Positions 1 to 28,500 of a DNA stretch of 64,000 nt are shown here, piece by piece. Every line of letters starts with the position of its first letter. Position 1 is the stretch's first letter. The notes under the pieces are model-generated. The model searched no databases. It saw only the letters and a program-made list of their open reading frames with translations, and was not told the DNA's origin. This stretch comes from Monodelphis domestica. Its lineage: Eukaryota. The stretch lies in the NCBI RefSeq assembly GCF_027887165.1, contig NC_077233.1, positions 136,177,080 to 136,241,079 of the forward strand, read 5' to 3'. The translations under genes were made by a program, and so were the position numbers.

Positions 1-3958
<3,958 letters not shown>

Positions 3959-5440: not shown

Positions 5441-6039
5441 GATAATTCAAAATAGCAGATTATCAATAACACCAGATTAAAAAACCAGCAGATAATCTGC
5501 AATATGGGATAGTCCATAAGCACTAGACATTCTGTTTGAGGATGAAGTTATATGATGCTGATGCTTAAAATCTGCCTTTTTTGTGATGCCAAATTTTGGT
5601 GAATGCTACTATAAAAAAGGAATATGCCTTTTTACAGCAAACTGGTTGTGGAGGGGTAGACTATGGTTCAGTGGTAAAATGATGTTCTAGACAATCTACC
5701 ATGTAGAGCATATACACCTGAGGAATTCCTCAAAGAAGGATGAAACCACTATTCCCTTCCCTTCCTTGGGCTAGCAGTACCATACATCACCCTCTTCAGA
5801 GAAGATCAGACCAGAGCATTGACTGAATTGTGGGGAGGGGAAGGCGGGGGTCCCCGTCTCTTTATTAGTCTCTGGTTCCTGATGGTGTCATGGCCGGGCT
5901 GTAGAGGGTGAAGAAGTATGTCATTTTGTCTGAGAGAGTCTGGGCTTCAGGGATGATGATCATAGTTAGGAGTCCTCCCTGGGACTTTGTCAGTTGAGTT
6001 ATGAAGGTTAGGGCCTCGAGCTACATTCTAAAAGGGGAG

Positions 6040-6055
6040 AGAGAGAGACAGAGAC

Positions 6056-6088
<33 letters not shown>

Positions 6089-6125
6089 GATAGATAGATG
6101 ATAGATAGATAGATAGATAGAGTGA
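6040..6125. repeat. Compound microsatellite (GA)n-(GACA)n-(GATA)n
   Basis: gagagagagacagagacagagacagagacagagagacagagagagagaaagatagatagatgatagatagatagatagatag. Confidence 0.95.
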
Positions 6126-7589
6126 GAGAGAGAAGGAAAAGAGGAGAGAAGGTATGAGCTCTTTCTGATTGGCCTATAGGGTTGCTTTTTGGATCAAGAA
6201 TCCAAGGCAGAAGAATATCTGCCTCTAAAGCATTCTAAGGGAAGTACTCTGTCCTATGAGATTGGAAGTTACCTACTTATTTTTCCTATCCTATGAGTTT
6301 CTTCCCCTATCTTTTTCTGACCTTCTGCCCATTCCTCTCTTATCAATACCACAAATCTAGGTCTTGTATGCCTGAACAAAAAAGAAAAATCTTAGTGGTA
6401 GAAGGATTTTATACGGTCAGCTAGTCTAATATACCCTAATGAAGAAATCTCACCTCTGACCTCTTTGAGAGATGGCCATCCAGTCTCTGCTTTAACATTT
6501 TTAGTGACTTGGAGCTTTTTGAGGCAGCTAGATGGTAGACAGTTCTGACAGAAAATTCTTCCTAAATGGAAATTTGCTTCCCTGTTGCTTCCTCCCATTG
6601 ATTCCAGTTCTTCCTTCCAGAGTAACATGGACTACAACTATCCCTTCAAATCTATGTAGTCAAGTCTTCCACTGTCTTCTTTCTTCTAAGCTAGGTAGAT
6701 TTATTTTTTCCAAGAGCTACATGGAAGAATGGTTTCTAGGCCCATCTCCCATCCTAGTCACTTTTCTCTGGGTGAACTCTACCTTGTTAATGTACCTTTA
6801 AATCTACCTTAAAATGTTGCTCCCACAGTTCAAAGTACCTTGACATTTCCTTGCTCTTTCCTGGAGGCAAGGGAAGAGAGGCTTTCTGGTACAGCAGGGG
6901 GCCTACGAACAGGCCTTCTGGTAGTCAAAAACATGGTTCCACCTAGGGCCTCCTCCTGCCGAACAGTCTCTACCTAGGAAGGGCAAGAAATTAATGCAGA
7001 ATGCTATCCCAGGCATTAGCCAGCCTGAGATAGAGTAACAGGATCAGGTTTTCTCTCACCTGCTTGTGTTGGGATGGCTCTTTGTCTTTTGACTTCAGCA
7101 ATTTTCCTTTATCATCTTTGAAATCTTCAACCTGGAGCATTACCAGGAAGAAGAGGAGCTATGTTTGTTTCTGAGGTTTGGAGCAGAATCTTTCTTATCC
7201 TGGGGAAGGGGAATTCCTGTAGTTTCCTCTTTGAGGTGGGAAGGTACAAGAATCTTCTCCCTTTCAGATCCCTATAGTTGGCCACTTCTCCTTGCTCTAG
7301 GTAAGGCCCACCCAGTAGGAAGAGAGGGGATTCAAGAACCCTATCACATACCATCTCTCTGGATGGCAGGAGATGAGTTTTATTTCTGGTCCTGTTTCTG
7401 TCAGAACTACAAAGAAGAAAGGAAGAGGGTGAAAAAAATTGAACTCCCTGGTGGAAGGCAGCCTAGCTGCTCTCTCTTGGACATATCATAGTTCCCTCCT
7501 ACCTACTAGTTCTACACAAAATTTCTTTTTCCAGGTGAATTCTCATTTCCTGCTTCCCTTGGGATACCAGACCCTTCTTCCCTGTAGGG

Positions 7590-7720
7590 TGTAGCAGGAA
7601 GTCTACTAGACTTCAAGTCTGAAAACCAGAGTTCAAGGCCTGACTCTGACACTTTTCTAGACCTGTGAGCAAGTCACTTAGTTCTTCTGTTCCAGCATCT
7701 ATCAAATGGGAAATACATTT
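7590..7720. repeat. MIR-like SINE fragment
   Basis: ...agagttcaaggcctgactctgacacttttctagacctgtgagcaagtcacttagttcttctgttccagcatctatcaaatgggaaat... Confidence 0.5.
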
Positions 7721-9599
7721 GTTCTATCAACCCCACACAATTCTGATAAGGAAAACAAATTGTAAAGCACAATATAAAAATATTATTTGCTATTTTCAAC
7801 TTTCTCATACCCTGAGATGAGACTTTTCCCCTTAAAGCCTCTTACCGAGTATCCGTGCCCTTGGTCCTGGTGGTTGGCAGCACTGAAAACATAGGTCCTG
7901 GTTAGAAAGGTTGCTTCTTTCCATGACCAGAAAGGGAAGAAGGGATTGGAATGGCTAGTCACAGGGGGTGGGAAGTGAGGTTGAGGATAAGGAGATGAAG
8001 CACAAATGCCTGCCATGTTGTATGTAAAAGAGATGTTAAATGGAAGTGGTTTTTAAGAGAGGACCTGCTAGGGTTCAGAATGGGTTCCTAGGGAGTAGAC
8101 TTAGGGGCTGGAGTACAGGGCACTGAAATGTTATTAGCGCAGGGATCACCGTGTCGGGACATCTGAGTTCCCTGGTCCAGTTTTTTCAGTTCCTTGGGCA
8201 CGTCAGGGCTCATTGGGTATTGGGCTCCCATCAGGGCCTCATTGGTAAGTTCTGTGCTGACCCGGGCCAAATACTCCTCAGACCTGGTCATAACCTTGCA
8301 GGAGGGATGAGAGTTGAGGGAACCAGGGTCAGAAGGTTGACTCGATGGGGTGGGGGTGGGGCTGTCCCCTTCCCTGTAGCCCTCCCACAGCACTCACCGC
8401 TGATACAGTGGAATTGTGCGAGAGTCGAGTGGTCTTTTTTTCCTGAGTTCCTGAAGGACTGGGCTCCATCTCCTTGGGATCAGGTAGAGTGAGGTAGAGT
8501 ATTAAGGTGGGAAGCTATCCCTTGGTTTTTTGTTTTTGTTTTTGTTTTTAGGGAGGTGGGACGGGCAGAGTCTGAAACCATCCCCACTACCAGTTATTTT
8601 CACAGTTGTCTGGATGAACCTCGGGGAGTTTCCTTTCTCCGACTGAATAACACATAAACTGTCCCCCTTTATTTTTCCGACTGATGAACATCCAGACCAT
8701 CCCATGTCATTTCTTCCCGCCCCCTCTCACCAACTCGGTCCTCCTCCCTCTCCTCAAAAAGGTCCCTTCGCTTGCTTTCCCCCTCTTCTTCCCTCAGTCC
8801 TCGAGGTCCTTCCCCTAACCCAAGGGTCTAAGTCCTCATTCTGCGGACCTTATGTTGCGTAGAAATTGCTTAAGGCCCGGGAGGGAAGAGACGGGGAGGT
8901 CTTCTTAGTTAGCCCCGCGGTTGCTGTTGCTATGGGTACTGGTCGCTGAGGATAAGGGAATGGAAGGGGGAGGGGAAGAGTGGCACGGGGTGGTTGCCCC
9001 GGGAACCACGCAGGCGGAGGGAGCTCTGCAGCGCGTTGCTAGGAGACATCCCCTTCGAGTTCTAGAAGTCAAATCTGAAGTCATCTTTTTTTTTCCTTTA
9101 TTTTTTCCCGGCATCCCTTTCTTTCTTCTCCGCTCGGGCCTAATCGGTTGCAGGAGACGCACTCAGCTTCTAGGGCGGGGAGGACTATTTATCCTTGCAA
9201 TGGGCTTGGATCTTGGAAGAGTAGTGTCCTCCCAAGGGCCAGGGGGCGATCTCTCAAGTCAGCTTCCTCTAGTTTAGGGCTCCTTCTGGACCCTCTAGCT
9301 ACCGCCTCGATGCCCGAGAGTGGCTGAGACCAAATGAGGACGAAAAGGCTAGGGAGTCGGGGTTGGAGGAAAGGTATGATTCTGGACTGAACCAAATGCA
9401 CCGCTAAGTAGGGGTCTTCCAGGGTCAGATAGGTAGAATACGTCTCTCTCTTATTCCTCTTTAAGAAGATACACTCACACAATATTAAAAGTAGTTCTCT
9501 AGTCTTCTTATCTAGCTTCTATTCGATAACTTCCTCCGTTCTAAGTTTACCACTCACTTGTAATCTCTGCGCGTACTCCCTGTCTAACTCTAAACTTGG

Positions 9600-10400
9600 T
9601 ACGGTCCAATCTAGAGAGGCGGAGGGAGGAAAAGGAAGCGGGCCTTTCTTAAAGGTATAGAAGCTATTTTTTGGCCTTCAATTTTGCGTCAACAAGGGCG
9701 GTAGAGCCGATTTCAGTGACACCGGGGGCCTTCCCCCCCTTACAGCTGGTGTTGCGACGACAGGAAGAAGGGTGGAGAGGAAGGTCTTAGAACCGGTCCC
9801 GGGGCCCCGAGGGAGGGGCATAGGGGCACCTGCACCCTTGCAGGAGGAAGGAGAGCGAGGCGCCGGCGGCTGCACATCTGGACCGGCTGATGCCTGGGAC
9901 GGCTGGGGGGACTTGCACATCTGGGTCCCACTCGGGGCGCAGGCCGCTGGGTCCACTGCAACCCCGGAGCGGCTGATGCGCTGGAGCAGAGGGAGGGGCT
10001 GCACAGCGGCGGCGCCGAGGAGATCCCGGGGGCAGAATAGAGGGGCCGAGCGAGAGCCCGGAGCGCCTTAGCTCGCAGACAGGGCTTGCCCAAGCTGACC
10101 AGCGGGGGCCCGCGGCGTGAGCTGCTTGGGGACCGCTCTCCACCTCACTGCGAGAGGCCGACCATCCCCACCCTGCCGAGATGCCGGAAGAAAACATCTT
10201 TCTGTTCGTGCCCAATCTCATCGGTGAGTCAAGCGGGCACAGACCCCTAAGCCCAAGCCCCGGGGAGGGCGAGGGCGGAGCTTGGCCGGGGAAGGGGTTC
10301 CAACGCCAACTCTATCCCCCGCCCCCCCTCCAATTTACGTAACCTTGGCTGGTAGCTTCTGGTCCTCAGTCCTCCGCCTTTGTGTGGGGCATGGTCAGAT
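9600..10400. promoter_or_regulatory. CDIPT: CpG island and CDIPT promoter/5'UTR, possibly bidirectional
   Basis: Very high GC and CpG density (gcgccggcggctgcac..., ggcccgcggcgtgagc) immediately upstream of the CDIPT ATG at 10181; there is no TATA box. Confidence 0.7.
10181..10223 (+). CDS. CDIPT: CDIPT exon 1 coding part (MPEENIFLFVPNLI+g)
   Basis: The ATG follows an in-frame 5'UTR; donor atcg|gtgagt. Confidence 0.85.
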
Positions 10401-12821
10401 TCCTTGACTTCCAGCGAACCTTTAAAATTTTTTTGGTTCCGTTATTCTGATCTGTTTCAGTACTCTTTCACCTCTCTGTTTCCTTCCCTCAGGCTATGCC
10501 CGGATCCTCTTCGCCTTCATTTCCTTCTACTTCATGCCCAGCTGTCCTTTGACGGCCTCCTCCTTCTACCTGCTTAGTGGGCTCTTGGATGCCTTCGATG
10601 GACATGCGGCCAGAGCCCTGAATCAAGGTGATTGCATGCCTAGCCTTTATTCCTCTCTGAGACCAAGAGGCCAGCAGTTAACGTCCCAGTTCCCTACTTC
10701 CCCCATCTTCCTGAGGCCTCAATTTCCTCACTCTCCAGTCAGGATTTTGATTTGTGAAAGGCTTTGCTTTGGAATGGGGTGACACCATCTCCACTGAGGA
10801 TAGAACCAGAAGAAATAGGCTGGCACTACTTCTTCAGGAAGGATTTAGATTATTAGCCTCCAGGAAGAACTCCCTGGTTGTTAGGTTGTAAAACAGAACC
10901 AAGTGAGCAAGGTAGGTTTGGGGCTTCTCTTTTTCTGGGGAGCTCTCTTGTGAACTCATTGATTATTTAGACAGTTGATCTTGGAGATAGGGGCAGGGGA
11001 TGAGATAGCCTCTTGAGAGTTGTAGATGTCTTTTGCTCCTCATTTTTTAAGATTTTAGATTATTTGCCCTAAGTTCAGAGGATTTCTCTACCTCTGGCTT
11101 TAATATCTGATTCTGTCTACCCTGGTTTTATCTCATACTTTTGACATGGTTCAAGACATAGTCAGGACATAGGAATATAAGGTTTTATACTAGGAAGGAT
11201 ATTTACTGACCATCTAGTCCAATGTCTTTGTGTACCTATGCTACTAAACTCAAAGAGTGACTTTCCAAAGGTCACCCAAATAGTAGAGTTGGGATTCAAA
11301 TCAAAACTTCTGGCTGGTGATCCAGGGCTATTGCCCGGTAATATGATATACTGTACCTACCCACCATGCCTTCTATTCTAACCTTGACCCTCTCATAGAT
11401 CAGTATCTCACTTGGCAGGCTATTTCTGAGTTGTCATCTCAGAGCCCAGGAGAGAATGAACACTCGATTTCTCAGTTCCTGTACATTTTTGGATTTGGAG
11501 CAATGCTGGGCATGCTAACTTCAGCCATTGATCCATTCTCCTCCACTGTATTCATCCTGAACCACTGACTCTCTTCTTACCTCTTTAACATAGGGACACG
11601 GTTTGGGGCAATGTTGGACATGCTGACTGATCGATGTTCTACTATGTGTCTGCTGGTAAACCTAGCTCTGCTGTACCCTCGGGCCACCCTACTCTTTCAG
11701 CTCAGCATGAGCCTGGATGTTGCCAGCCATTGGCTGCACCTACACAGGTTATACCCATTGCCTTTGTGGGTTGAAAAATTGTAACCTTGGGTGTGGCCCA
11801 GAATTGGCTGAGTTACTTCTGAAGTTAGTTCCAAAGGGGTGGTAGCATGCACTTAAGGCAAGGTTGGTAGAAAGAGAAGGTTTTTAGACACTTAGCTGGG
11901 GAATGGACTTTCTTCTTGGGAGCAAGAGAAAATACATGGCTCATGGTCAATATTATTCAGAGAAATGTAGGCAATAGCTTGGGGAGGTAGAGCAGAATAG
12001 GAATTGGAATGGGAGAGGTATATTTGATCTTTTCATGTTTTCCCCTCTAGCTCGGTGGTCCAAGGTAGTGCAAGCCACAAAACCATTGACCTGACAGGGA
12101 ATCCTATCCTTCGACTCTACTATACTTCCCGGGTGAGTCCCAATCCAGGCCATACTCCCCCTCCCACCTCTATTCTCATTATCCAGCCTGCATCTCCATG
12201 CCATGTATCCCCCCTTTTTTAAAGTTTTAATTGGTTTTGGAGTGAATGTGGGTGGGCTTGTGGTAGGTACTCCCTCTGACCCAGTTGTTCTCTTTGTGTG
12301 TGAGGTACAGATGGGAGAGGGAAAGAGAAAAGATGGGAGTCCACTGTTCAAGTCAGAAACATGAGTTTTGCCTTCTTCCTGCAGCCAGTGCTATTCATCA
12401 TGTGTGCTGGGAATGAAATTTTCTACTGTCTGCTTTACTTGCTCAGTTTCTCAGAGGGACCCTCAGGTATGATCCAGATTTTAGGGATGGGGGGGGGGGA
12501 CCCAGGAGATCTGGGGACAAGCTGCATGGGGTGGGAGCTGGGGGAGATGCAGATAGGAGAAATGACTGACTTGATTGGATACTAATGACGAACCTTTTAA
12601 TTGGATTTTCTTCTCTCCTTTCCTCTTCTACCAATCCCCTCTCTATACTGGACTTTTTTCCCTCCTTTCTTGCAGTGGGTTCAGTAGGTCTGTTCCGAAT
12701 GGGACTCTGGGTCTCTGCTCCTATTGCTTTCCTCAAGTCCATCATCAGTGTCATCCACTTGGTCACTGCTGCACGAAACGTGGCTGCCCTGGATGCTGCT
12801 GATCGTGCCAAGAAGGAATAG
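10181..12821 (+). CDS. CDIPT: CDIPT (CDP-diacylglycerol-inositol 3-phosphatidyltransferase), complete 6-exon CDS, about 213 aa
   Basis: MPEENIFLFVPNLIG|YARILFAFISFYFMPSCPLTASSFYLLSGLLDAFDGHAARALNQ|GTRFGAMLDMLTDRCSTMCLLVNLALLYP... contains the CDP-alcohol phosphatidyltransferase motif D-G-x2-AR-x8-G-x3-D-x3-D. All junctions are AG/GT and the total length is a multiple of 3. Confidence 0.92.
10493..10627 (+). CDS. CDIPT: CDIPT exon 2
   Basis: Acceptor ccctcag|gc and donor caag|gtgatt. Confidence 0.85.
11594..11747 (+). CDS. CDIPT: CDIPT exon 3
   Basis: Acceptor aacatag|gg and donor cacag|gttata. Confidence 0.85.
12051..12132 (+). CDS. CDIPT: CDIPT exon 4 (SVVQGSASHKTIDLTGNPILRLYYTSR)
   Basis: Acceptor cctctag|c and donor cgg|gtgagt. 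Confidence 0.85.
12385..12466 (+). CDS. CDIPT: CDIPT exon 5 (PVLFIMCAGNEIFYCLLYLLSFSEGPS)
   Basis: Acceptor cctgcag|cca and donor tcag|gtatga. Confidence 0.85.
12676..12821 (+). CDS. CDIPT: CDIPT exon 6 coding part (...AARNVAALDAADRAKKE*), stop TAG at 12819-12821
   Basis: Acceptor ttgcag|tg; the C-terminus matches the recalled human CDIPT. Confidence 0.85.
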
Positions 12822-13934
12822 CCCTGATGTCTTCTCTGCCTCCAGCAAACTTCCTGCCCCATTCCTCTCCGCCATGCCTTGCCCACCATCCACCATGGTG
12901 CTGTTATGCCCTCCCCCAATGAGGTCAGCCTTTTATATAACATAAGGCATATCCTCCACAGTGCTGTGTTCCTTCCACTCCCACCCCATGCTGTCAGAAC
13001 CTCTTCCAGGATGTCACTGTTCTTTGTTCCCACTCCCAAACGGTGTCATTTCCCTGTGATGAGGGTAGAACCCAGATATTAGATGAGGGTTCTCTTTGTG
13101 GGGGCAATGATGAAGTCCCAGCCACAGGAGATGAGGCCATAGCCTCCATGACTTGGGGATGGCCATAGTCCAAGGGTGACTAGGCTCCTTAGGAGAAGGT
13201 ATGGAGGAACAGAGGTGTGTCCTTGCACTGAACCAGGCAAGGGGGCTGTTGTTCCAGTCCCAGGAGATGGTGTGACCCATGCAAGTGGTGCTGCTGTGTT
13301 TGAGGGAGACGGTGTGGGGGCTGGCTCTCCACTAGGGGCCAAACTCCCCTCCTCTTGGTCTGAATGTCTGAATTGGAGGAGTCTTTGCCCAGGAGGGAAG
13401 GAGGTTCACTGGATCCTTCCCTGTTGTACTATCTCATGATGTGTAACCTGGCCCTGAGGCCTTGATGATAAAGGAGGAAACTTCACAATCAGAGCCCAGG
13501 CTCCTGTCTTCACTTCCTTGACTGTTTTCTTAAGGTGGGGGACTGGATAAATCGCATAACACTCAGGAACAAAGAGACCTCACTTCCTTTCACTTAAACT
13601 ATGTTTGTCCTGTGGTACCTCTCCCCAATACTACCCCTTAGGTGGAAGGCTTTCCTTTCAGCTCTCTAACTACTTTTAAGACCTTTGTACTCAGAGAAAT
13701 GTCTTATGATTCCTCCTAGCACCTGGGAGCCAAATCATTGCCCATGGTTCTAGGTACTTTTATTTAATATTCTAACACTGTTGGCTAGCTCCTGGTGCCC
13801 ATAGGCCTTATCTCCCCATGAGTCTGAACTCTTGGGGGGGCAGAAATACCTTGATATCAATCAGTAGCCTTGAATCTCTAGAGCATCTGAGCTGGCAGAA
13901 GAGAACTCCTCAGGAAGCAGGACCATTGACCAAC

Positions 13935-16577: not shown

Positions 16578-19500
16578 CTATGATAAGAGAAGGAAATACA
16601 ACAATTATAGGATGAAAAAATTTTACAGCGATAAGGAACCTTAGAAAATAATTCTTTTACATATAGATCTTAAAACAGTCTCTGGGGCTAAGTGGGCTTA
16701 ATTAACTAGCCCAGGGTCACACAGCAGGGACTTGCATACAGGTGTTCTGATTCTCTTTCTACTATACAAGTATCAAGTGGCATTAAAGCTGGAAGGGACC
16801 TTTGGGACTGTCTCTAGTTAAATTTCAATTTTATAAAGAGATTCAAAAGCATTCCTAGAACTCAGAATTTTTCCAGTCAGATCAGATCAACAGCAATTTT
16901 CTTCCCTTCCCACCCAAAACACACCAGCTTCTGGCCCTCAGAGATCTTCTTCCCAACCAGGACAGAAGGATTTTCCTTGGATTGCCAAGACCTTTTGGAC
17001 ATTCCTAAACTGGAGTGGTCTCCTCCCTCATTTCTTCTGGCTAGCTTACCTGCAGCTCAGGCCCAGCCAGCGCAAGGTCCCGAATAGTGCCAGAGCCCAA
17101 GGCCTCTGTCATCTCCTTGAACTTCTTAACCTCCACTTCTGCCAGTCTCTCTGCCTTGTTCAGTTCCAGCTCCATTTGGGCCTTGGAGTAGATGAGCTCC
17201 TGCTCCCTGGCTTTCTGTATTCGAAGTAATTCTGCCTCCTGAAGAAAGGAATTCAATCAGATCTCTGGGCCCTAAGGGGCAATATAAGCCACCACCCTCA
17301 TCTACCACTGCCTTGCTTTGTGGTTACCACTGCAAGTGCCCTACACTTTGAGGATGGATAAAAGTATAGGTGAAGCAAACACAGAATGGAGAAAAGAGAA
17401 AACAGAAATACAAAAAGAGGCTGATCACTAGGTCAGCCTTAGTGGGCTCAGTAAGGTTTTATGCAGAAAAGTAGGAATTTAGCTGAGCCTTGAAAGATGA
17501 GGAAGTAACACGAACCATGACACATAAAATAGGAAGGATATATCGACATTTCAGAAAAGAAGCTACTTTCCCCCTTTCAGGTTCCTTTCTTTTCTGCCTT
17601 GGCTCTAACCCAGGAACCTTTAAGGTGCTTCCTACTCACCGTTTCTATGGCTAAGGCCTCTGCCTTCAGCTTGGCCTGTAGAACTGCTCCTTCTCCCTCA
17701 ATCCGAGCTGCCTGGGCCCGGGATTCTGCCTCTGCTTTAGCAGCTCCAGTACTTTCCACAGCAGTGCTTGGGAAGGAAAAGTTGGATGAGACCCATGGCA
17801 AAAAAAGTCCTTTTCTTCCCTTCCCTACTTGAAACTTCCTGGCTTGGTACCATCTTTCTCCTGATTTCCTTGTTTCTTTCAATAATTCAATTCAGCATTT
17901 ATTAATCAGTATTAAGTGAGGCAACATACAGAAGAAAATAAGAACAGTAGTTTAAGGTTCAATGAGTGGGGATGAACTTTGGTTCTCACTTATTTAAATT
18001 GGTCAAAGGAGGGAAGAATACATACACACAGTTGGGTAGAGAAATATAGTTCACATAACTAGGAAATGGGTGAAAAGAAGAAAGATGTAGCAATAAGAGG
18101 AAGAGCAGATTGAAACTTAGTGGGTGTACAAAACACACATTTATAAATATTTACATATAGTTTTTTTGTGGTGATAAAGAATTGGAATTGATTGAGTACC
18201 CATCAGCTAGGGAGTAGAAGAGCAAGTTATAGTATAGAAATATGATAGAATACTATTATGCTCTAAGATACAATGAAAGGGATAGTTTCAGGGAAACCTG
18301 GAAAAATATATATGAACTGATAGAGTGAAGTGAACAGAAACAGGAGAACAATTTACACAGTGACAACAATATGGTAAAACAAATATCTTGAAAGATTTGT
18401 GAATTCTGATCAGTTTAACAATCAACCACAATTCATAAGATTTGTGTGATGAAACATGCTGTTTGCCTCAGCAGAAAAGTGAAGGGCTTGGAGTATGGAA
18501 GCAGATGTGTGTGTGTGTATCTGTGTAAATAAAATTTTCTTTTGGATAAGGCCAATGCAGAAATCTGTTTTGCTTGACTATACACATTTTTAATAAGGAT
18601 TTTTTCTTTTGATCATTTTGTGGGAAGGTAGATTTTTGCTCATTGAAAAAATTTAATGAAATTTAATAAAATTTAAAAAAATAAAAAAGGAAAGCAATTT
18701 GGAATTCTAATTCCAGAGGTACTCAACTCTCTATGTCCTTTGACCTAGCAATACTCCTACTAGACCCCAATATTTCAAAGAGAATAAAGGGGGGGAAAAA
18801 AGGACCCATGTACTTCTGTACAAAATATTTCTAGTAGCTCTTTATGTAGTGGCAAGAACTGGAAACTAAGGGGATGCTAAGGGAAACTAAGGATCACCTG
18901 GGGAATGGCTAAAGAAACTACAGTATATGAATATAAGGGAATACTATTGTGCTATACAAATGAAAAGATGTTTTCCACGAAACTTGGCAAGATCTGTATG
19001 GACCAAGCAAAACCAGAGCAATTTACAGGATAACATCAACATTTCAAAACCAAGCAAATCTGAAAGCCTTAAGAACTATTGATTATGCAGAAGAGCAGAA
19101 CCAGGAGAACATTGTACACAGAGACTGATACACTGTGGCACAATTGAACGTAATGGACTTCTCCATTAGTGGCAATGCAGTGATCCTGGACAACTGGGAG
19201 GGATTTATGAGAAAGAACACTATCCACATTCAGAGGAAGAGCTGTGGGAGTAGAAATACAGAAGAAAAACAACTGCTTCAATACATGGGTCGATGCTGAT
19301 ATGATTGAGGATGTAAACTCTAAATGAACATCCTAGTGCAAACAACAACATGGAAATGGGTTCTGATCAAGGACATGTGTAATACCCAGTGGAATTGTGA
19401 GTTGGCTGCGGGAAGGGTGGGTGGAGGGGAGGGAAGGAAATAATGTAATTATTGTAACCAAGGAATAATGTTCTAAATTGACTAAATAAATTAATTCAAA

Positions 19501-22500
19501 TTCTTTTAAAAAAACTGTTGATTACAGGAGCTTCATGATGAAGAAAGCTATCCACCTCATGACAGCGATGATGGACTAAGAGACAATGAGATACACATTT
19601 TTGTATGTGGTTAATGTTTACTTGACTAGGGTTTTGCAAGGGGAGGGGAGAGGAAGGGAAAAGAAATGCTTGATAATTTAAAAAAATTGTTTTAAGTGAT
19701 AGGAATAAGATAAGTACCACATAGACACCTCACCCTCAAGGAATTTAGAATCCCACATTGGGGAATATGATATGTAAACAGTAAGTAGGATATGATACAA
19801 AGCAGAGTAAAACAGACTAAAATGAGGAAGGAATATGTTCTAGGAATGGAGGCTGGTCTTTTTGGATAGATAGGAACAAATGAGCACAAGAAAGAAAAGG
19901 GAATAACAAATAGTTCAGTCTGTCCAGAATATCCCTTTTGTGAAACAAAAGAATTATAAAATAAAGGTGGGAAAGTAGGTTGGGACCATAACTGTGGAGG
20001 GCCTTTGATACCAGGCTAAAGGAGTTTGATATTTTACTCTAGAGGCCATGGTGAGCCATGAGGGTTTTTATAAGTAGAAGAGTGAAGTCATTAGCCCTGT
20101 GCATTAGAAACATGATTTTGGCAGTCATGTGATCACTAAATTGAGGATGGGGAGACTCTGGAGACAGGGAAACCAGTTAAGAGGCTATCATAATCCAGAT
20201 AAAGGCTTAACAGTATGCTGGGAGAACAGAAAATGCTCTCCCACAGCACTCCTTTTATTCTTTATTTCTTGCGTCAAGGAAAGACTGTACAAGGAGAGAG
20301 ACTGGATTATGATGATGGTGTCAACAGAAATGGAGGTTGGGGCAGATTTAGGGGAAATTTGATGGGAGCAGTTGGAAGATGAGTTTGAGGGACTGGTGAG
20401 ATATTTTGGTGGAGATGTCAAGCAGACAGCTGAAACAATGGAATAGAGGCTTTGGAGAGCTAAGTATTCAGAAATGGAAGTAACTCATATATTCCAAGGT
20501 TGGAGAATAAGAATAAATTGTAATATCTTCATGTAGTAGAATATTTTTTTTTTTTTTAAAGTGTGACATATGGGAGAGGTGGTGGGAGGGGGGAGGAGGA
20601 AAAGAAAATGATCTTTGTTTCCAATGAATAATGTTTGGAAATGACCAAATAAAATAATGTTTAAAAAAAAAAGTGTGAAATAAGGAGCTATGGAAAGACC
20701 AATGAGATGACGCAAAGTAACATCATAGCATTGAAACTGTATACATCAACGATATGTACCTCCTGTCCCCCTCTCCTCCCAAAAAAGTAAAGAAAATAGC
20801 CAAAAGGTGGCAAGGCCCAGAAAGGGACACAAACCATCTTATTTGCCAGTACTTCTGTTAACTCTTTTGGTTCTGTTTTGTAAAAAAAATTAGGGGGGAC
20901 TTTGAGAAGATTTCAGTCATTTCTCTTAAATGTTCATTTTATTGTTTTGGTGACACTTAAACTTAAGTTTTTAAAATTACTGGTGACATTGGAAAGTAAG
21001 AGTAACAGAAGGTAGGAACTCTCTCCTGTTCCTTTGGCCAGAGGGGGTCAAGGAAGTGGTCTCTTTGCCTTCTCTAGGTTTTCTTCTTTTCTCTCCTTAT
21101 TTAGTTGTGTCTGACTTTGCTTGACCCCATTTGGGATTTTCTTGGCAGAGACACTAAAGTGGTTTGTCATTTTCTTCTCCAGCTCATCTTATAGAAGAGG
21201 AAACTGAGGCAAACAGGGTTAAGTATTTTTCCCAGATCACAAAGCCAGTAAGTGTTGGAGGCCAGATTTGAACTCAGGAAGATGAGTTTTCCTGACTCCA
21301 GGTCTGACACTCCATCCCCTGTGCCACCTGGATACCCTCTTCTCTCCTTACCTCTCAGCTTCAAGGAGCAGCAGCTCCTTTCGAGCTTTTTCGGCTTCTG
21401 CTTGGTCCAAGATCTTCTGACGCTCCAGCCGCCCCCGAGCCTCCTGCTCTAGTCTCTGAGCCTCATGTCTGAAAGAAAAGGAGATGGGAAAAGACTCTTG
21501 AGGATAGTTGTAGAAGAAGAATGGGAGCGAGGCAGGGCCAGAGACAAGTACATTATGGGGGGAGGAAGGAAACTGGCATTTATCAAGCACTTGCTATGTA
21601 CGCAGCAACGTGCTAAGTTCTTTACAAAAATTGTTTCATTTGGTCTTTGAAACTCTGGGAAGCAGATCACACAGCTAGTGAAACATCTGAGGCTGAATTT
21701 GAATCACTTGGCTACCTTAAGGAGGTCTCTAGATGTTAAGTATACTCAATATACAAAGGCAGCTGAGTGGTGTAGTTGATATAGTGCTAGTCCTGGAGTC
21801 AGGATGACCTGAGTTCAAATATAGGTTTAAGTACTTACTAGCTATAGGACCTTGGGCAAGTTGCTTGACCTCTGTTTGCCTCAGTTTCCCCATCTGTCAA
21901 ATGGGAGTAATAATAGCACCTCCCTCCCCAAACTATGGAAATGAGTGCAGAACTGGGCATGGGTGGGGAAAGCTAGCTGCTCCACTTACTTAGCTGCAGC
22001 TTCTTGGGAATTGGTAGTGATTTCAATGGCCAGCTGGACACTCCGTTGTAAAGCATCCCGGGTCCGCTGGTCCACGGGTTCTACAGACTGGACATCCACA
22101 CTACTGACTACCAATCCATTCTGAGGGAAGAAGGCTCGGTCCCGGGGTGGAGGCAGGGCAGCACCCCCAGGTCCTTTCTCTGCTCTTTCCTCAAAACCAA
22201 AGACAGACATACGAATGATGCGAGCTGAATTCTTATGGAAGTCATCAAAGGTGACTGAGGCCACAGCCCCTCGAACCCTGGAGGCAATGGCTTTGCAAGC
22301 GTCACCCACAAAGTCTGGGACAGAGAAGAGCCGAGCAGCCTCTTGGGGGTCATTCCGGTCTGTCAGTTCAAAGTGCCTGTGGGTGAAGAAAGAGAGAAAG
22401 AGGTTCCATCTCCTTCTTCAACAATGAAGTCCTCTATTTAGGCCTCTGCCTAGGAGTCAGGATTTTTTTTTCAGATCTAATTACTTCTTGTCTCGATTAT

Positions 22501-25500: not shown

Positions 25501-28500
25501 CACTTCCCAGAATTCCCTATAATCTCACCTGAATCCCCACCTGGGCCAAGAACAAAATTTGTATTTAAATTGACTGTATCTCCCACTTGGTCTCTCTGCT
25601 TCTGCTTCTAAGCATACGAGTCTCTCAAGATGTAGTAAGTGAAATTGAATGGGTTATGTGCCCTAGGCACGTGCTTTCTTATTTTGTATTTCTTTATCCT
25701 TGATTTCTAATAATCTTTAATAAACCTCTAAAAATATAATACTTTTAGTAGAGAAACTAATTTAACTGTTACAATACTCTGGTTGGTATTAGTAATCAGA
25801 AAAAAAATTAGGTCAAGATCTGGCAGAATCATTTGATGAGAGGCCCACTGATTGGGGCTTATGGTTTACTTTACTCTTTAATCTGATTTAACTCCAGGTT
25901 CTAGACAAAAGTTTGGCTATCCCCCTCACATGTGGAATGCTCCTAATTTCTGCCTTCTGGTTTCTTCAAGTCCCAGGGAAAATTCCACCTACAGGAAACC
26001 CTGTATTTCCTTATTCTTTTTTTTTTTAAATAAACTCCTAACTTCTGTCTTTGATCAATACTATGAATTGGTTCTAAGAAGAATAGTAAGGGCTAGGCAA
26101 TGGGAGTTAAATGACTTGCCCAGGGTCTCATAGCCAGGAAGTGTGTGAGGCCAGATTTAAACCTAAGATTGCCCATCTCTATCCATTGAGCCACCTAGCT
26201 GGCCCTATTCCCTTATTTTAAATTTCTCTTCATTTTAATGCCTTCTTTTTGTTGACTATTTCCTATTTAACCTGTATATAATTTGTACATGGGAACTTGG
26301 ATGCTGTCACCCCTATTAGATTGTGAAGTTCTTGAGGGCAGGGATTATTACATTTCTTTGTAACCCCAGGTCTTAGCACAGTGCTTGGCACATAGCAGGT
26401 GCTTAAAAAATTGTTTACTAGCTACTTCTATAAATCACTTAGCATCAAGATTTGAGTTCTAATTTTGGGAACTTTGAGACCTTTTAGACTGTAAACTCCT
26501 TGAGGGCTTTTTATTAATTGTAACCCCAGGGTTTAGCACAGTACCTGGCATATAGTAGGAGCTTAATAAATGTTCATTGGATTAGGCTGGAGTTCTGTCA
26601 CTTATAAGTGGTCTGACTGAGGGAAGGTCACCTTTCTATTCTAGGTTTCTGTTTCTTCATCTAAAAAATGAGGATCTGCTTCTACTGTGGGAAATAATTG
26701 AGGTAAGATGTCAGAAAAAGGGAGGCAAATCTTTCCCTGGGAGCTTGGAGGTAGGCATGGGGTTCTATAGCTCCATGGCCAATTCTGTGTAAGCTGAAGT
26801 TTTAATTCAGACAACTGAGAAAGTTTCAAATCAGCCATGGAGAGAGTTGCTGAACCTGAAGTCTGGAAGATTTGTATTCAAATATGGTTTCTGACACTAA
26901 TTGTATGACCCTGAATAAGTCACTTAACATCTCTCTGCCTCAGTGTTCTCATCTGCAAAATGGAGACCATAATAACAGTCCCTCCCTTCCCTTCACAGGG
27001 TTGTTGCTAAGACTAAAGGACATAGTGCAACCATTACAAATATGAATAACATGAAAATAGGTTTTGAGTAATAAGACGTGCATAAACCAGTGGAATTGCT
27101 TGTCAGCTCTGGGCGGGGGGAAGGAAAAGGGGAGAGAGAGCACATGAATCATGTAACCATGGAAAAATATTCTAAATAAATTAATTAAATTAAAAAATAA
27201 AATTCAAATGAAATAAAATAATGTGAAAAAAATAAAGGAGGTGGTATATGTAAAGGAATTGATGAACCTTAATGAGCTATAAGTCAAGCTATTATTCTTT
27301 CATTTCGGATCTGAGTTTGGAAGTCTTTCCCCAGGTTCCAGACTCACCTTGCCAGTCTTGACATCTCTCACATAGATGCCTTCATTCTCATCCAGGGGAA
27401 TGGCCTGGCGTTGCTCTATCACTTCTACTTTGGCTGGAGGAACATACTCCAGGGGTCCCCTAATCAGCCAGCGATCTCCAGCCCGCTTGCTGGAAACCTT
27501 TTCCTCACCAATCTCCCCACCTTCTCCCTCGGTCAGAGGCTGGAGGGCCCTTAGGAGCAGTCCTTCATCTTCTGACAGCACAAACACCTGCTGGATCCCC
27601 TGCTCCAAACTCTCCCCAGGCTGAAGGAAGAAGGATTTCTCCCCCTGTCGGGAAAAGACACAAAGTCAGGACAAAGGACGCTTTCTGTTCGCGACGGGGC
27701 CTGCCCGCGTCCTGCCGGCCTCGTCACCTTCACCACGCGCTTGTGTCCCAGCTGGTTCTTGCCGTCGGGCCCCACGGGGTCGACAATCACACAGTAGTTC
27801 CGAGGACCCAGGGTGGTGATTTTCACAATTCCCAGCACCTCCTCGTAAACATCAGGCACGTGGGCTTCGGCGTCCGCCTGGGTGACCAGCCACTCTTCTC
27901 CGGTGTGGCGCGGCACGCCTCTCACGTCGCGGAAGTTCTGCAGAGCCCGGAGGTGCAGGGCTATCTGTGAAGGGAGACGAGAGCTAGAGGGACCTTTTGC
28001 CTCTCAAGAAATCCAGAAGGATGTGATCTCCCGCTCAGTGGCCATAACATTAATGCCAGGAGAGCCGCCATGTATATGCTGCTCTTTGATCTTGACCATC
28101 AACTCATCCTTTCTTAGCCTTCTTCATCCTGACAGGATCTCTGGTTCCTTACTACTGACTACTTCCTCCCTGATCCAAGAGACTTAGGAAAGCTATACGG
28201 ATAGAAAAGGGTCTTCCATTTACCCTACTTCCAGAGTGATGCCCCAACACCTGCCAGTGAGGTTAGAAGAATGGCGTTAACTTATTCTTGTGTCATGGAT
28301 GCTTTTGGGAGTCTGGTACCCATGGATTCCTTCTCAGAATAGGGATTTTCAATGCATAAAATAAAACGTAAAGGATTACAAAGGAAATCAAGGCTATTGA
28401 AATATAATTTAAAAAATTAGGGGGCAGCTGGGTGGCTCAGTGGATTGAGAGCCAGGCCCAGAGATGGGAGGTCCTGGGTTCAAATCTGGCCTCAGACACA

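What the first reader, a model, noticed from the sequence alone, without database searches (positions are those of the whole stretch)
5861..9700. Candidate unannotated spliced minus-strand gene divergent from the CDIPT promoter, possibly encoding a small protein
The minus strand between SEZ6L2 and CDIPT holds a set of exon-like segments with good splice signals and ordinary vertebrate codon usage.
- 8150-8294: tccctcctgcaag|GTT ATG ACC AGG TCT GAG GAG TAT TTG GCC CGG..., giving MTRSEEYLARVSTELTNEALMGAQYPMSPDVPKELKKLDQGTQMSRH followed by g|gtgatc.
- 7853-7930: joins in the same phase as EATFLTRTYVFSAANHQDQGHGYS|gtaaga.
- About 7349-7403: a 55-nt exon with a strong pyrimidine tract-AG acceptor and a GTATGT donor.
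- 5865-5963: a terminal block (MIIIPEAQTLSDKMTYFFTLYSPAMTPSGTRD) ending in TAA TAA that overlaps a minus-strand AATAAA.

The 5' end would sit in the CDIPT CpG island, making a bidirectional promoter. In human this position holds the non-coding CDIPT-AS1/CDIPTOSP. The 47-aa ORF that begins exactly at a predicted acceptor and reads in-frame into the next exon does not look accidental to me. I could not assign the peptide to any family from memory.
Basis: partly seen in the sequence, partly recalled or inferred. Interest (0 to 1): 0.6.

Follow-up and report, generated by a model that had tools for sequence, protein, structure and literature searches.

The report
Opossum CDIPTOS/T-ENOL small-protein gene
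The flagged stretch is a real seven-exon gene for a small, mostly unstructured protein conserved across mammals, but public databases already annotate it (opossum LOC103092874, the counterpart of eutherian "T-ENOL"/Cdiptos and of human CDIPTOSP), so it is not a new discovery.

Summary
The window is Monodelphis domestica. The minus strand between SEZ6L2 and CDIPT carries a real spliced protein-coding gene.

**Gene model.** A seven-exon model built by hand from the window translates to 198 aa. It is 100% identical over its full length to RefSeq XP_016279678.1 (LOC103092874 isoform X2), so the gene is not unannotated.

**Orthologs.** They sit in the same CDIPT / gene / SEZ6L2 arrangement in wombat, Antechinus, tammar, Peromyscus and Bos. 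Dromiciops and echidna show the divergent CDIPT side. Eutherian copies are named "putative protein T-ENOL" or "CDIP transferase, opposite strand". The human copy is CDIPTOSP, also called lnc-CTHCC.

**Coding signal.** dN/dS is 0.18-0.43 among marsupials, about 0.3 against echidna and 0.21 for Peromyscus-Bos. The other two frames give 0.77 and 1.71 and hold 6-10 stops each.

It had exon 2 exactly, and the 55-nt exon, terminal exon and poly(A) signal nearly. The start codon, the exon-3 acceptor and frame, and the terminal ORF frame were wrong. Three coding exons were missed.

**Protein.** It is basic (pI 9.9) and largely disordered, with one confident helix. It matches no Pfam family and no solved structure.

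**Side finding.** A conserved cluster of three RFX X-box motifs lies 470-580 bp upstream of the start codon.

The gene is known; its function is not.

The parts
8840..9095 (-). Conserved upstream block and candidate promoter. It holds three RFX X-box-like motifs: 9047-9035 GTCTCCTAGCAAC, 9006-8993 GTTCCCGGGGCAAC and 8939-8926 GTACCCATAGCAAC.
   Evidence: In sliding 40-column windows, 62-85% of columns (mostly 72-85%) are invariant across 5 marsupial genomes. The motifs keep their positions in Dromiciops, wombat and Antechinus, and 2 of 3 in tammar. Echidna has two, at -286 and -231. Peromyscus has an identical GTCTCCTAGCAACG at -471. This is the only 3-site cluster in the 64 kb window; the Poisson estimate is about 0.004 for the whole window. 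Promoter function is inferred, not shown.
8398..8469 (-). Coding exon 1 (72 nt of CDS). ATG at 8469-8467 in context GAGATGG; encodes MEPSPSGTQEKKTTRLSHNSTVSA; donor GCG|gtgagt. The 5' UTR and transcript start were not determined.
   Evidence: (donor at the 98.8th percentile). The same 72-nt exon is present in four other marsupials.
8150..8294 (-). It encodes the family's conserved helix and the DQGTQMSRH motif.
   Evidence: Nucleotide identity to other marsupials is 90-94% with no gaps. The profile search found 36 proteins at E<=1e-3; apart from one 2552-aa repeat protein that matches only profile positions 6-16, all inspected sequences show the family motifs, and every hit whose source name was looked up is a mammal.
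7846..7882 (-). Coding exon 3 (37 nt): ttttcag|TGCTGCC...ACTCG|gtaaga, reading (V)LPTTRTKGTDT(R). If the donor is not used, CGG TAA ends the ORF, which explains the Ensembl models ending in ...GTDTR.
   Evidence: There is a 37-nt exon in all 6 non-eutherian species examined and a 34-nt exon in Peromyscus and Bos.
7352..7406 (-). It reads SDRNRTRNKTHLLPSREM and is the most conserved part of the protein.
   Evidence: There are no amino-acid changes among 5 marsupials (pN = 0, pS = 0.117).
7060..7131 (-). Coding exon 5 (72 nt): VEDFKDDKGKLLKSKDKEPSQHKQ. Its donor CAG|gtgaga is the best-scoring donor in the region.
   Evidence: It was found in every marsupial and monotreme gene mapped here, but not in the Peromyscus and Bos gene models or the roughly 120-aa eutherian proteins aligned.
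6839..6973 (-). Coding exon 6 (135 nt): VETVRQEEALGG...RKEQGNVK.
5861..6027 (-). Terminal exon. ORF; poly(A) signal AATAAA at 5866-5861. An alternative internal acceptor at 5898 gives RefSeq isoform X1, with stop TGA at 5808-5806.
   Evidence: AATAAA and its flank are conserved in 4 marsupials. A 1-nt deletion in tammar and wombat brings the 'MIIIPEAQ' frame into the CDS in those two species only.

Best explanation
**What it is.** The region is the Monodelphis domestica ortholog of the mammal-wide gene known as CDIPTOS, or 'putative protein T-ENOL'. RefSeq calls the opossum gene LOC103092874. The human counterpart is CDIPTOSP, also called CDIPT-AS1 or lnc-CTHCC.

**Structure (shown).** It is a seven-exon, GT-AG-spliced, minus-strand protein-coding gene. 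It lies head-to-head with CDIPT and tail-to-tail with SEZ6L2. Its main product is a 198-aa (22 kDa) basic protein.

**Evolution (shown).** The coding frame has been held under purifying selection in marsupials, a monotreme and eutherians.

**How it probably works (inferred).**
- The protein is intrinsically disordered apart from one conserved amphipathic helix at residues 28-47 (RSEEYLARVSTELTNEALMG).
- Two short motifs are also conserved: DQGTQ(M/I)S(R/K)H and (R/K)GTDTRSD(R/K)NRTR(N/T)KxHLLP.
- It most likely acts as a small binding or adaptor protein through these motifs. The arginine-rich stretch fits nuclear targeting or nucleic-acid binding.
- Transcription is probably driven by its own promoter, about 0.4-0.6 kb upstream of the ATG. 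That region carries a conserved cluster of three RFX X-boxes, which predicts expression in testis or ciliated cells, matching the testis-restricted expression reported for the human locus.
For: **Identity**
- The hand-built model from window exons translates to a protein 100% identical over 100% of its length to XP_016279678.1, LOC103092874 isoform X2.
- Isoform X1 is also reproduced exactly.

**Family**
- A profile of exon 2 finds 36 proteins at E<=1e-3; one is a repeat-protein false positive and the others inspected share the family motifs. A search with the full-length protein finds 60.
- Sources name them 'putative protein T-ENOL' or 'CDIP transferase, opposite strand'.

**Synteny**
- A divergent CDIPT (PF01066) is present in all seven other loci.
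- A convergent SEZ6L2-like gene (CUB/Sushi) is present in five of them.
- In the window, CDIPT and the end of SEZ6L2 were confirmed.

**Exon structure**
- Exon sizes are 72/145/37/55/72/135 in marsupials (exon 6 is 126 nt in Dromiciops) and 84/148/37/55/72/132 in echidna.
- They are 81-90/145-151/34/58 for the first four exons in the two eutherians.

**Selection**
- dN/dS is 0.18-0.43 among marsupials, with Fisher p from 9e-9 to 3e-4 for opossum against each.
- It is 0.26-0.31 against echidna and 0.21 for Peromyscus-Bos (p = 7.5e-9).
- The other two frames give 0.77 and 1.71 with 6-10 stops per species.
- Third codon positions change most.

**Exons versus introns.** Exons align without gaps to echidna at 65-75% identity (exon 1 only 52%), whereas introns fall to about 49% with many gaps.

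**Protein properties**
- AlphaFold2 with 35 sequences gives one helix at residues 28-47 (10-residue block means 70, 89 and 72 over residues 21-50). The rest is low confidence, with mean pLDDT 55.8.
- pI is 9.9, GRAVY is -1.16, and there is no hydrophobic segment.

**Promoter inference**
- The X-box block is conserved.
- Mouse testis RFX2 ChIP-seq lists Cdipt as bound (PMC4498915 Table S1).
- Human CDIPTOSP is described as highly expressed in testis (PMC10779127 and PMC10111779).
Against: - No transcript, ribosome-profiling or peptide evidence for opossum could be reached with these tools. The RefSeq and Ensembl entries are computational models.
- The protein has no Pfam family, no solved relative and no confident fold, so the proposed mode of action rests on composition and motif conservation alone.
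- The C-terminus is not stable. The terminal exon changes frame by a 1-nt indel between lineages, and other terminal exons are used in dasyurids and koala.
- Exons 1 and 6 evolve faster, with pN/pS about 0.5-0.6.
- Wombat has lost the canonical exon-3 acceptor, AG to CG.
- The human ortholog is classed as a pseudogene and has been studied as a lncRNA. Ape sequences break otherwise invariant residues: DQGTQ becomes DQATQ and EALF becomes EALC.
- RFX binding and the transcript start are untested in opossum. The mouse ChIP peak is assigned to Cdipt, not to Cdiptos.
Confidence: 0.92

Rival explanations
1. The locus makes only a long non-coding RNA, a marsupial CDIPT-AS1 or lnc-CTHCC. Its ORF is fortuitous and was picked up by automatic annotation.
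For: [quoted passage not shown] The protein has no known domain and is mostly disordered. The 5' and 3' ends of predicted proteins differ between annotations.
Against: A 172-codon frame spread over six exons is open in all five marsupials and echidna, and the first four exons are also conserved in two eutherians. dN/dS is 0.2-0.4, highly significant, while the other two frames are full of stops and give dN/dS of 0.77-1.71. Exon lengths and phases are conserved.
Confidence: 0.05
2. One reading: a protein of about 72 aa that starts at ATG 8291, continues into a long version of exon 3 (7916..7846, EATFLTRTYVFSAANHQDQGHGYS) and then into the 55-nt exon.
For: The sequence can be read this way. A koala RefSeq isoform (XP_020862488.1, P0005) uses the same frame of a long exon 3 (ERGALFLTRAYVFSAANHSDQGHRSS), but it skips exon 4 to stay in frame. 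The same skip would also stay in frame in opossum.
Against: The required acceptor aaag|AAG scores at the 56th percentile of all AG sites scored, whereas the canonical acceptor has the strong ttttcag motif (not scored). With exon 4 included, the frame stops after one codon. Met at 8291 is not conserved; it is I, L or V in other marsupials. The canonical frame VLPTTRTKGTDTR-SDRNRTRNK is nearly invariant from monotremes to eutherians.
Confidence: 0.03
3. Dual-function locus. The mRNA encodes the conserved protein, and the transcript, or the act of transcription next to CDIPT, also has a regulatory RNA role like that described for lnc-CTHCC.
For: An RNA-level role is reported for the human transcript. 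Intron 2 is unusually conserved among marsupials at 82-88%. Intron-2-retaining '...HGDP...' ORFs are predicted in many species. The gene lies close to CDIPT, head-to-head.
Against: Nothing here tests an RNA function. Constraint falls on the reading frame rather than evenly on nucleotides: pS of 0.11-0.33 against pN of 0-0.16.
Confidence: 0.2
4. The Ensembl/TrEMBL model (A0A5F8G8G2, 92 aa) is the true product. It has a first coding exon at 12943..12848, antisense to the CDIPT 3' end, and terminates right after exon 3.
For: The protein maps exactly to 12943.., 8294..8150 and 7883..7845. Not using the exon-3 donor gives CGG TAA, a stop.
Against: Its N-terminal 32 residues have no counterpart in any other species. 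That exon lies where the 3' end of the minus-strand MVP gene is expected (MVP-like ORFs), so it looks like a read-through chimera. Exons 4-6 downstream are conserved and under selection.
Confidence: 0.04

Closest known systems
RefSeq LOC103092874 (Monodelphis domestica), isoforms X2 (XP_016279678.1, 198 aa) and X1 (XP_007499481.1, 202 aa)
   Same: Identical. Both proteins are reproduced residue for residue from window exons 8469-8398, 8294-8150, 7882-7846, 7406-7352, 7131-7060 and 6973-6839, plus 6027-5947 for X2 or 5898-5806 for X1.
   Different: Nothing in the sequence differs. RefSeq gives no name or function ('uncharacterized protein').
Eutherian 'putative protein T-ENOL' / Cdiptos (CDIP transferase, opposite strand)
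   Same: Same genomic slot between CDIPT and SEZ6L2. Same first four coding exons and phases. Same conserved helix and the GTDTRSDRNRTR..HLLP motif. Purifying selection applies (dN/dS 0.21). NCBI already uses the T-ENOL name for a didelphid, Gracilinanus.
   Different: The eutherian proteins aligned here are about 115-120 aa and end shortly after exon 4, with a short tail such as ...GVLPNSLTTGG. Marsupials and monotremes carry two extra coding exons (5 and 6) and reach about 200-240 aa.
Human CDIPTOSP / CDIPT-AS1 / lnc-CTHCC
   Same: Positional ortholog, named in the paper's table of 16p11.2 transcripts as lying between CDIPT and SEZ6L2. Described as testis-restricted and conserved.
   Different: It is classed as a pseudogene or lncRNA and is credited with an RNA mechanism: hnRNP K tethering at the YAP1 promoter. 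Ape ORFs have lost residues that are invariant elsewhere. The opossum gene has an intact, constrained ORF.
RFX (X-box) controlled testis and cilia genes
   Same: A cluster of three X-box-like motifs (GTNRCC N0-3 RGYAAC) lies a few hundred bp upstream of the ATG and is conserved across mammals. RFX2 ChIP-seq in mouse testis flags the neighbouring Cdipt. RFX2 is a major regulator of spermiogenesis (PMC4498915, PMC4745085).
   Different: Binding, the transcript start and dependence on RFX are not shown for this gene in any species. In the mouse table Cdipt is bound but not differentially expressed, and Cdiptos itself is not listed under that name.

Membership tests
CDIPTOS / 'putative protein T-ENOL' gene family | Genomic position: divergent from CDIPT and convergent with SEZ6L2 | tested here: met
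   In the window, CDIPT exons run from 10181 on the + strand and the SEZ6L2 CDS ends near 3958 on the + strand. Divergent CDIPT is present in all seven other loci (wombat, Dromiciops, echidna, Antechinus, tammar, Peromyscus, Bos). Convergent SEZ6L2 is present in five of them.
CDIPTOS / 'putative protein T-ENOL' gene family | Significant sequence similarity to proteins carrying that name, including the conserved motifs | tested here: met
   Similarity to eutherian T-ENOL proteins gives E-values mostly from 1e-13 to 1e-20. Residues of SEE-L--S--L--EAL--A, D-GTQ, TD--D-NR and HLLP are invariant in a 35-sequence alignment.
CDIPTOS / 'putative protein T-ENOL' gene family | Shared exon-intron structure and phases for coding exons 1-4 | tested here: met
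   Exon sizes are 72/145/37/55 in opossum, 81/151/34/58 in Peromyscus and 90/145/34/58 in Bos, all GT-AG.
CDIPTOS / 'putative protein T-ENOL' gene family | Reading frame under purifying selection | tested here: met
   dN/dS is 0.18-0.43, with frame controls.
CDIPTOS / 'putative protein T-ENOL' gene family | Testis-enriched expression, as reported for the human locus | not testable with these tools
   No opossum expression data were reachable. Only indirect support exists from the X-box cluster.
Long non-coding antisense RNA (CDIPT-AS1 / lnc-CTHCC type) | Absence of a conserved, selectively constrained ORF | tested here: not met
   A 172-codon frame over six exons is conserved from opossum to echidna with dN/dS of about 0.3.
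Long non-coding antisense RNA (CDIPT-AS1 / lnc-CTHCC type) | RNA-level function (hnRNP K binding, m6A-dependent stabilisation) | not testable with these tools
   This is known only from literature on the human transcript.
Bidirectional CpG-island promoter pair with CDIPT | Two divergent transcript starts less than about 1 kb apart within one CpG island | tested here: inconclusive
   The two ATGs are 1712 bp apart. CpG-rich sequence is confined to about 9750-10250. The conserved X-box block is at 9095-8840. No transcript-start data are available.
RFX X-box regulated genes | Conserved X-box motif(s) close to the promoter | tested here: met
   Three sites with at most 1 mismatch lie within 122 bp. 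They are conserved in marsupials, partly conserved in echidna and Peromyscus, and only degenerately conserved in Bos.
RFX X-box regulated genes | RFX occupancy and RFX-dependent expression | not testable with these tools
   The only available data point is that mouse RFX2 ChIP-seq lists Cdipt as bound, without differential expression.

The most novel reading that the evidence does not exclude
CDIPTOS/T-ENOL is a genuine, ancient (pre-therian) microprotein of testis or ciliated cells, driven by RFX. It is under purifying selection in most mammals and decayed only in apes. The locus studied in human and mouse as the 'conserved cancer-testis lncRNA' lnc-CTHCC would then act, at least in non-primate mammals, through this protein. 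That includes the mouse knockout's protection from liver cancer.
Probability: 0.2. Interest if true: 0.55.

Novelty: already known. Interest (0 to 1): 0.27.

Why it matters
For the scan, this finding closes as a correct detection of a real gene that public annotation already holds. It shows that reading splice signals plus an ORF can find small genes, but that exon boundaries and frames need cross-species checking.

The biology has one point of wider interest. This locus lies in the 16p11.2 interval. In human it is labelled a pseudogene and has been studied as a lncRNA, yet its ORF shows clear protein-level constraint in marsupials, a monotreme and eutherians. No paper found here reports a function for the protein.

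Separating protein from RNA function in mouse Cdiptos, and testing the conserved X-box promoter, would be straightforward experiments.

Tried and rejected
**Lookups that failed**
- Exact-sequence lookups of the Ensembl devil and wombat proteins, Petaurus P0057, and opossum isoforms X2 and X1 returned nothing. No opossum record or transcript contig could be fetched.
- The collection returned no protein from an assembled marsupial RNA-seq run, so splicing could not be checked directly.

**Searches that found nothing**
- Pfam at E<=10 found nothing for the opossum, Peromyscus or echidna proteins, and only sub-threshold noise for tammar.
- PDB sequence search gave a best E-value of 1.
- Rfam on 5500-10300 at E<=0.1 found nothing.
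- Self-comparison of 5700-9700 against the rest of the window found no repeats at E<=1e-5. The MIR-like and CR1/L3-like stretches could therefore only be recognised by eye.

**Not run**
- A fold search was not run, because the AlphaFold model is one helix plus low-confidence coil (pLDDT 55.8, pTM 0.18) and would give meaningless matches.

**Motif ideas considered and dropped**
- A PP1-docking RVxF motif: eutherian S(R/K)HVFF fits, but marsupials and monotremes have RHVLP.
- An AKAP-type RII-binding helix: the hydrophobic-pair pattern fails at Ser37 and Thr41. This was judged by inspection against a consensus recalled from memory.
- A CTCF site in the conserved upstream block: no convincing match to the core consensus by eye.

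**Other**
- The primary lnc-CTHCC paper (PMID 35122073) is not held.
- The third large protein search, intended to look for non-mammalian homologs, was deliberately not spent.

Full report
**1. What is in the sequence**

It runs 8294..8150, with acceptor tcctgcaag|GTTATG, donor CACG|gtgatc, and the peptide MTRSEEY...QMSRH.

The 55-nt exon is real, at 7406..7352. The ORF MIIIPEAQ...GTRD (5963..5865) exists and ends in TAA TAA overlapping AATAAA at 5866-5861.

- There is no AG before 7930.
- The stated frame needs the weak acceptor aaag|AAG at 7917/7916. That site scores at the 56th percentile of all AG sites scored, using a simple weight matrix written from memory.
- The donor lies at 7846|7845.
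- In that frame the 55-nt exon gives Phe-stop.

**2. It is already annotated**

A profile of exon 2 searched against 1.84 billion representative proteins found 36 hits at E<=1e-3. One is a 2552-aa repeat protein matching only profile positions 6-16. The other sequences show the family motifs, and every hit whose source name was looked up is a mammal. Longer marsupial and monotreme models among them showed further exons.

I then built a seven-exon model from the window:

| Exon | Window coordinates (minus strand) |
|---|---|
| 1 | 8469-8398 |
| 2 | 8294-8150 |
| 3 | 7882-7846 |
| 4 | 7406-7352 |
| 5 | 7131-7060 |
| 6 | 6973-6839 |
| 7 | 6027-5947 |

All introns are GT-AG. The 198-aa translation is 100% identical over its full length to NCBI 'uncharacterized protein LOC103092874 isoform X2 [Monodelphis domestica]', XP_016279678.1. 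Isoform X1 (XP_007499481.1, 202 aa) is reproduced by using an internal acceptor at 5898. So the window is opossum, and the gene is annotated by both RefSeq and Ensembl.

**3. What family it belongs to**

Sources name the eutherian relatives 'putative protein T-ENOL', and in Peromyscus 'CDIP transferase, opposite strand'. NCBI uses the T-ENOL name for another didelphid, Gracilinanus.

I fetched the genomic loci of orthologs from wombat, Dromiciops, echidna, Antechinus, tammar, Peromyscus and Bos.
- In every one, the gene lies divergent from a CDP-OH_P_transf gene (CDIPT).
- In five of them, a CUB/Sushi gene (SEZ6L2) converges on it.
- In the window itself, CDIPT coding exons start at 10181 on the + strand, and the SEZ6L2 CDS ends near 3958.

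This establishes positional orthology with human CDIPTOSP, which the literature places between CDIPT and SEZ6L2.

**4. Is it really coding?**

*Exon structure.* Exact spliced mapping of each species' protein onto its own locus gives these exon sizes:

| Group | Exon sizes (nt) |
|---|---|
| Marsupials | 72/145/37/55/72/135 (exon 6 is 126 in Dromiciops) |
| Echidna | 84/148/37/55/72/132 |
| Peromyscus | 81/151/34/58, first four exons |
| Bos | 90/145/34/58, first four exons |

*Selection.* Nei-Gojobori estimates on the exon 1-6 codon alignment give the following:
- dN/dS of 0.18-0.43 for all marsupial pairs. Opossum against each gives Fisher p from 9e-9 to 3e-4.
- 0.26-0.31 against echidna.
- 0.21 for Peromyscus against Bos (p = 7.5e-9).

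*Controls.* The same alignment read in the other two frames gives 0.77 and 1.71, with 6-10 stop codons per species. Differences concentrate at third codon positions.

*By exon.* Exon 4 has no amino-acid change among the marsupials despite pS = 0.12. Exons 1 and 6 are looser, at about 0.5-0.6.

*Exons versus introns.* Exons align to echidna without gaps at 65-75% identity (exon 1 only 52%). Introns drop to about 49% with heavy gapping.

Direct evidence of transcription or translation could not be obtained. No RNA-derived contig or exact record was reachable.

**5.

- The CDS starts at ATG 8469, in context GAGATGG. The ATG at 8291 is Met26, and that position is I, L or V in other marsupials.
- Exon 3 is the 37-nt ttttcag|TGCTGCC...ACTCG|gtaaga.
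  - If its donor is skipped, the frame reads CGG TAA. That explains the Ensembl proteins ending in GTDTR.
The same skip is in frame in opossum, but the acceptor there is poor.
- The terminal exon starts at 6027.
  - In opossum and Dromiciops the CDS ends after ...NYDHHP (opossum) or ...CQHHHP (Dromiciops). The monotreme tail resembles this frame.
  - A 1-nt deletion in an A-run in tammar and wombat shifts those species into the 'MIIIPEAQ...' frame. In opossum that block is therefore 3' UTR.
  - The AATAAA and its flank are conserved in four marsupials.
- The Ensembl opossum protein's unique N-terminus maps to 12943-12848. That is antisense to the CDIPT 3' end, where the 3' end of minus-strand MVP should lie. 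It is probably a read-through chimera.

**6. What the protein looks like and how it probably works**

Measured properties:
- No Pfam family, no solved relative and no Rfam hit in the region.
- 22 kDa, pI 9.9, GRAVY -1.16, no cysteine or tryptophan, and no hydrophobic segment. A signal peptide or membrane span is therefore unlikely.
- AlphaFold2 with a 35-sequence family alignment predicts a single helix at residues 28-47 (10-residue block means 70, 89 and 72 over residues 21-50). Everything else is low confidence (mean pLDDT 55.8, pTM 0.18).

The invariant residues fall in that helix (SEE-L--S--L--EAL--A) and in two short motifs: D-GTQ, and TD--D-NR...HLLP inside an arginine-rich stretch, RSDRNRTRNK.

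My inference is that this is a disordered small protein working through short binding motifs, with the basic stretch suggesting nuclear or nucleic-acid association. This is the weakest part of the account.

**7. Promoter**

The two start codons are 1712 bp apart, and CpG-rich sequence is limited to about 9750-10250.

The most conserved intergenic block among five marsupials is 9095-8840, which is more conserved than several coding exons. It holds three X-box-like motifs (GTNRCC N0-3 RGYAAC, at most 1 mismatch) at 9047-9035, 9006-8993 and 8939-8926.
- This is the only such cluster in the 64 kb window. The Poisson estimate is about 0.004 window-wide.
- The sites keep their positions in the other marsupials.
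- Two are present in echidna.
- One is identical in Peromyscus, and degenerate versions are present in Bos.

RFX2 is a major regulator of spermiogenesis (PMC4498915 and PMC4745085). Its mouse testis ChIP-seq table lists Cdipt as bound. Human CDIPTOSP/lnc-CTHCC is described as highly expressed in testis.

I therefore infer a dedicated RFX-type promoter a few hundred bp upstream of exon 1, rather than a shared CpG-island promoter. This is untested.

**8. Comparison with what is known, and verdict**

The gene is a member of the CDIPTOS/T-ENOL family by position, sequence, exon structure and constraint. It differs from the eutherian proteins aligned here in having two extra coding exons.

It does not fit the 'lncRNA' label carried by the human locus. 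Ape ORFs show decay of residues that are invariant elsewhere, which is consistent with the human pseudogene label.

No paper in the library reports a function for the protein. Mentions are gene lists, a CTCF-insulator example, and reviews of lnc-CTHCC.

| Item | Score |
|---|---|
| Novelty | Already known as a gene; function unknown |
| Interest | 0.27 |
| Most novel reading not excluded | An RFX-driven testis or cilia microprotein underlies phenotypes credited to lnc-CTHCC |
| Probability of that reading | About 0.2 |

Noticed in passing
window 8926-9047 (within conserved block 8840-9095), minus strand: Three RFX X-box-like motifs lie within 122 bp, 470-580 bp upstream of the gene's ATG. They are nearly invariant in five marsupials and partly conserved in echidna, Peromyscus and Bos. 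Mouse testis RFX2 ChIP-seq lists the neighbouring Cdipt as bound (PMC4498915 Table S1).
   Followed up: partly
window 12848-12943 minus strand; MVP-like ORFs on the minus strand at 17577-17882, 21348-22309 and 27300-27925: The Ensembl/TrEMBL opossum protein A0A5F8G8G2 takes its first 32 residues from an exon antisense to the CDIPT 3' end, just past the CDIPT stop at 12821. The 3' end of the convergent MVP gene should lie there. The model looks like an MVP read-through spliced across the whole CDIPT gene into exon 2.
   Followed up: partly
window about 6400-6630 minus strand (intron 6): This stretch resembles the 3' end of a CR1/L3-type retroelement (...aagcagagactggatggccatctc...attagactagctgacc...). 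In dasyurids, koala, Petaurus, tammar and bilby the orthologous piece is used as an alternative terminal coding exon (REELDSMEGSDRE...LKQRLDDHLSKRL). In opossum the frame is broken. The repeat was recognised by eye only.
   Followed up: partly
window about 7570-7800 minus strand (intron 3): A MIR-like SINE fragment (...cccatttgatagatgctggaacagaagaactaagtgacttgctcacaggtc...gtcagagtcaggccttgaactc...). It was recognised by eye from a remembered consensus. No second copy was found in the window at E<=1e-5.
   Followed up: no
window about 6035-6130 minus strand (intron 6, just upstream of the terminal exon): A compound microsatellite, (TCTA)n followed by (TC)n and (TCTCTG)n, abuts the polypyrimidine tract of the terminal-exon acceptor.
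   Followed up: no
L001 (wombat) 6574-6575: In wombat the canonical exon-3 acceptor AG is CG (ttttccg|TGCTGCC). The RefSeq wombat protein instead carries an in-frame 17-residue insertion (GDACANNSALLSRPMFS), made from an extended exon 2 and an upstream acceptor. The frame is preserved despite loss of the splice site.
   Followed up: partly
window 7883-8149 (intron 2): Intron 2 is unusually conserved among marsupials (82-88% identity, against 68-84% for the other introns). Read-through of the exon-2 donor gives ...SRHGDP... ORFs, which are also predicted in many eutherians (HGDP.., HGDL..). A conserved intron-retention isoform or a regulatory element is possible.
   Followed up: no
proteins P0033, P0034, P0037, P0041 (apes and Old World monkeys): Primate T-ENOL ORFs replace residues that are invariant in all other mammals examined: DQGTQ becomes DQATQ, EALF becomes EALC, and SRH becomes SKR. 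This is consistent with relaxed constraint leading to the human 'pseudogene' label.
   Followed up: no
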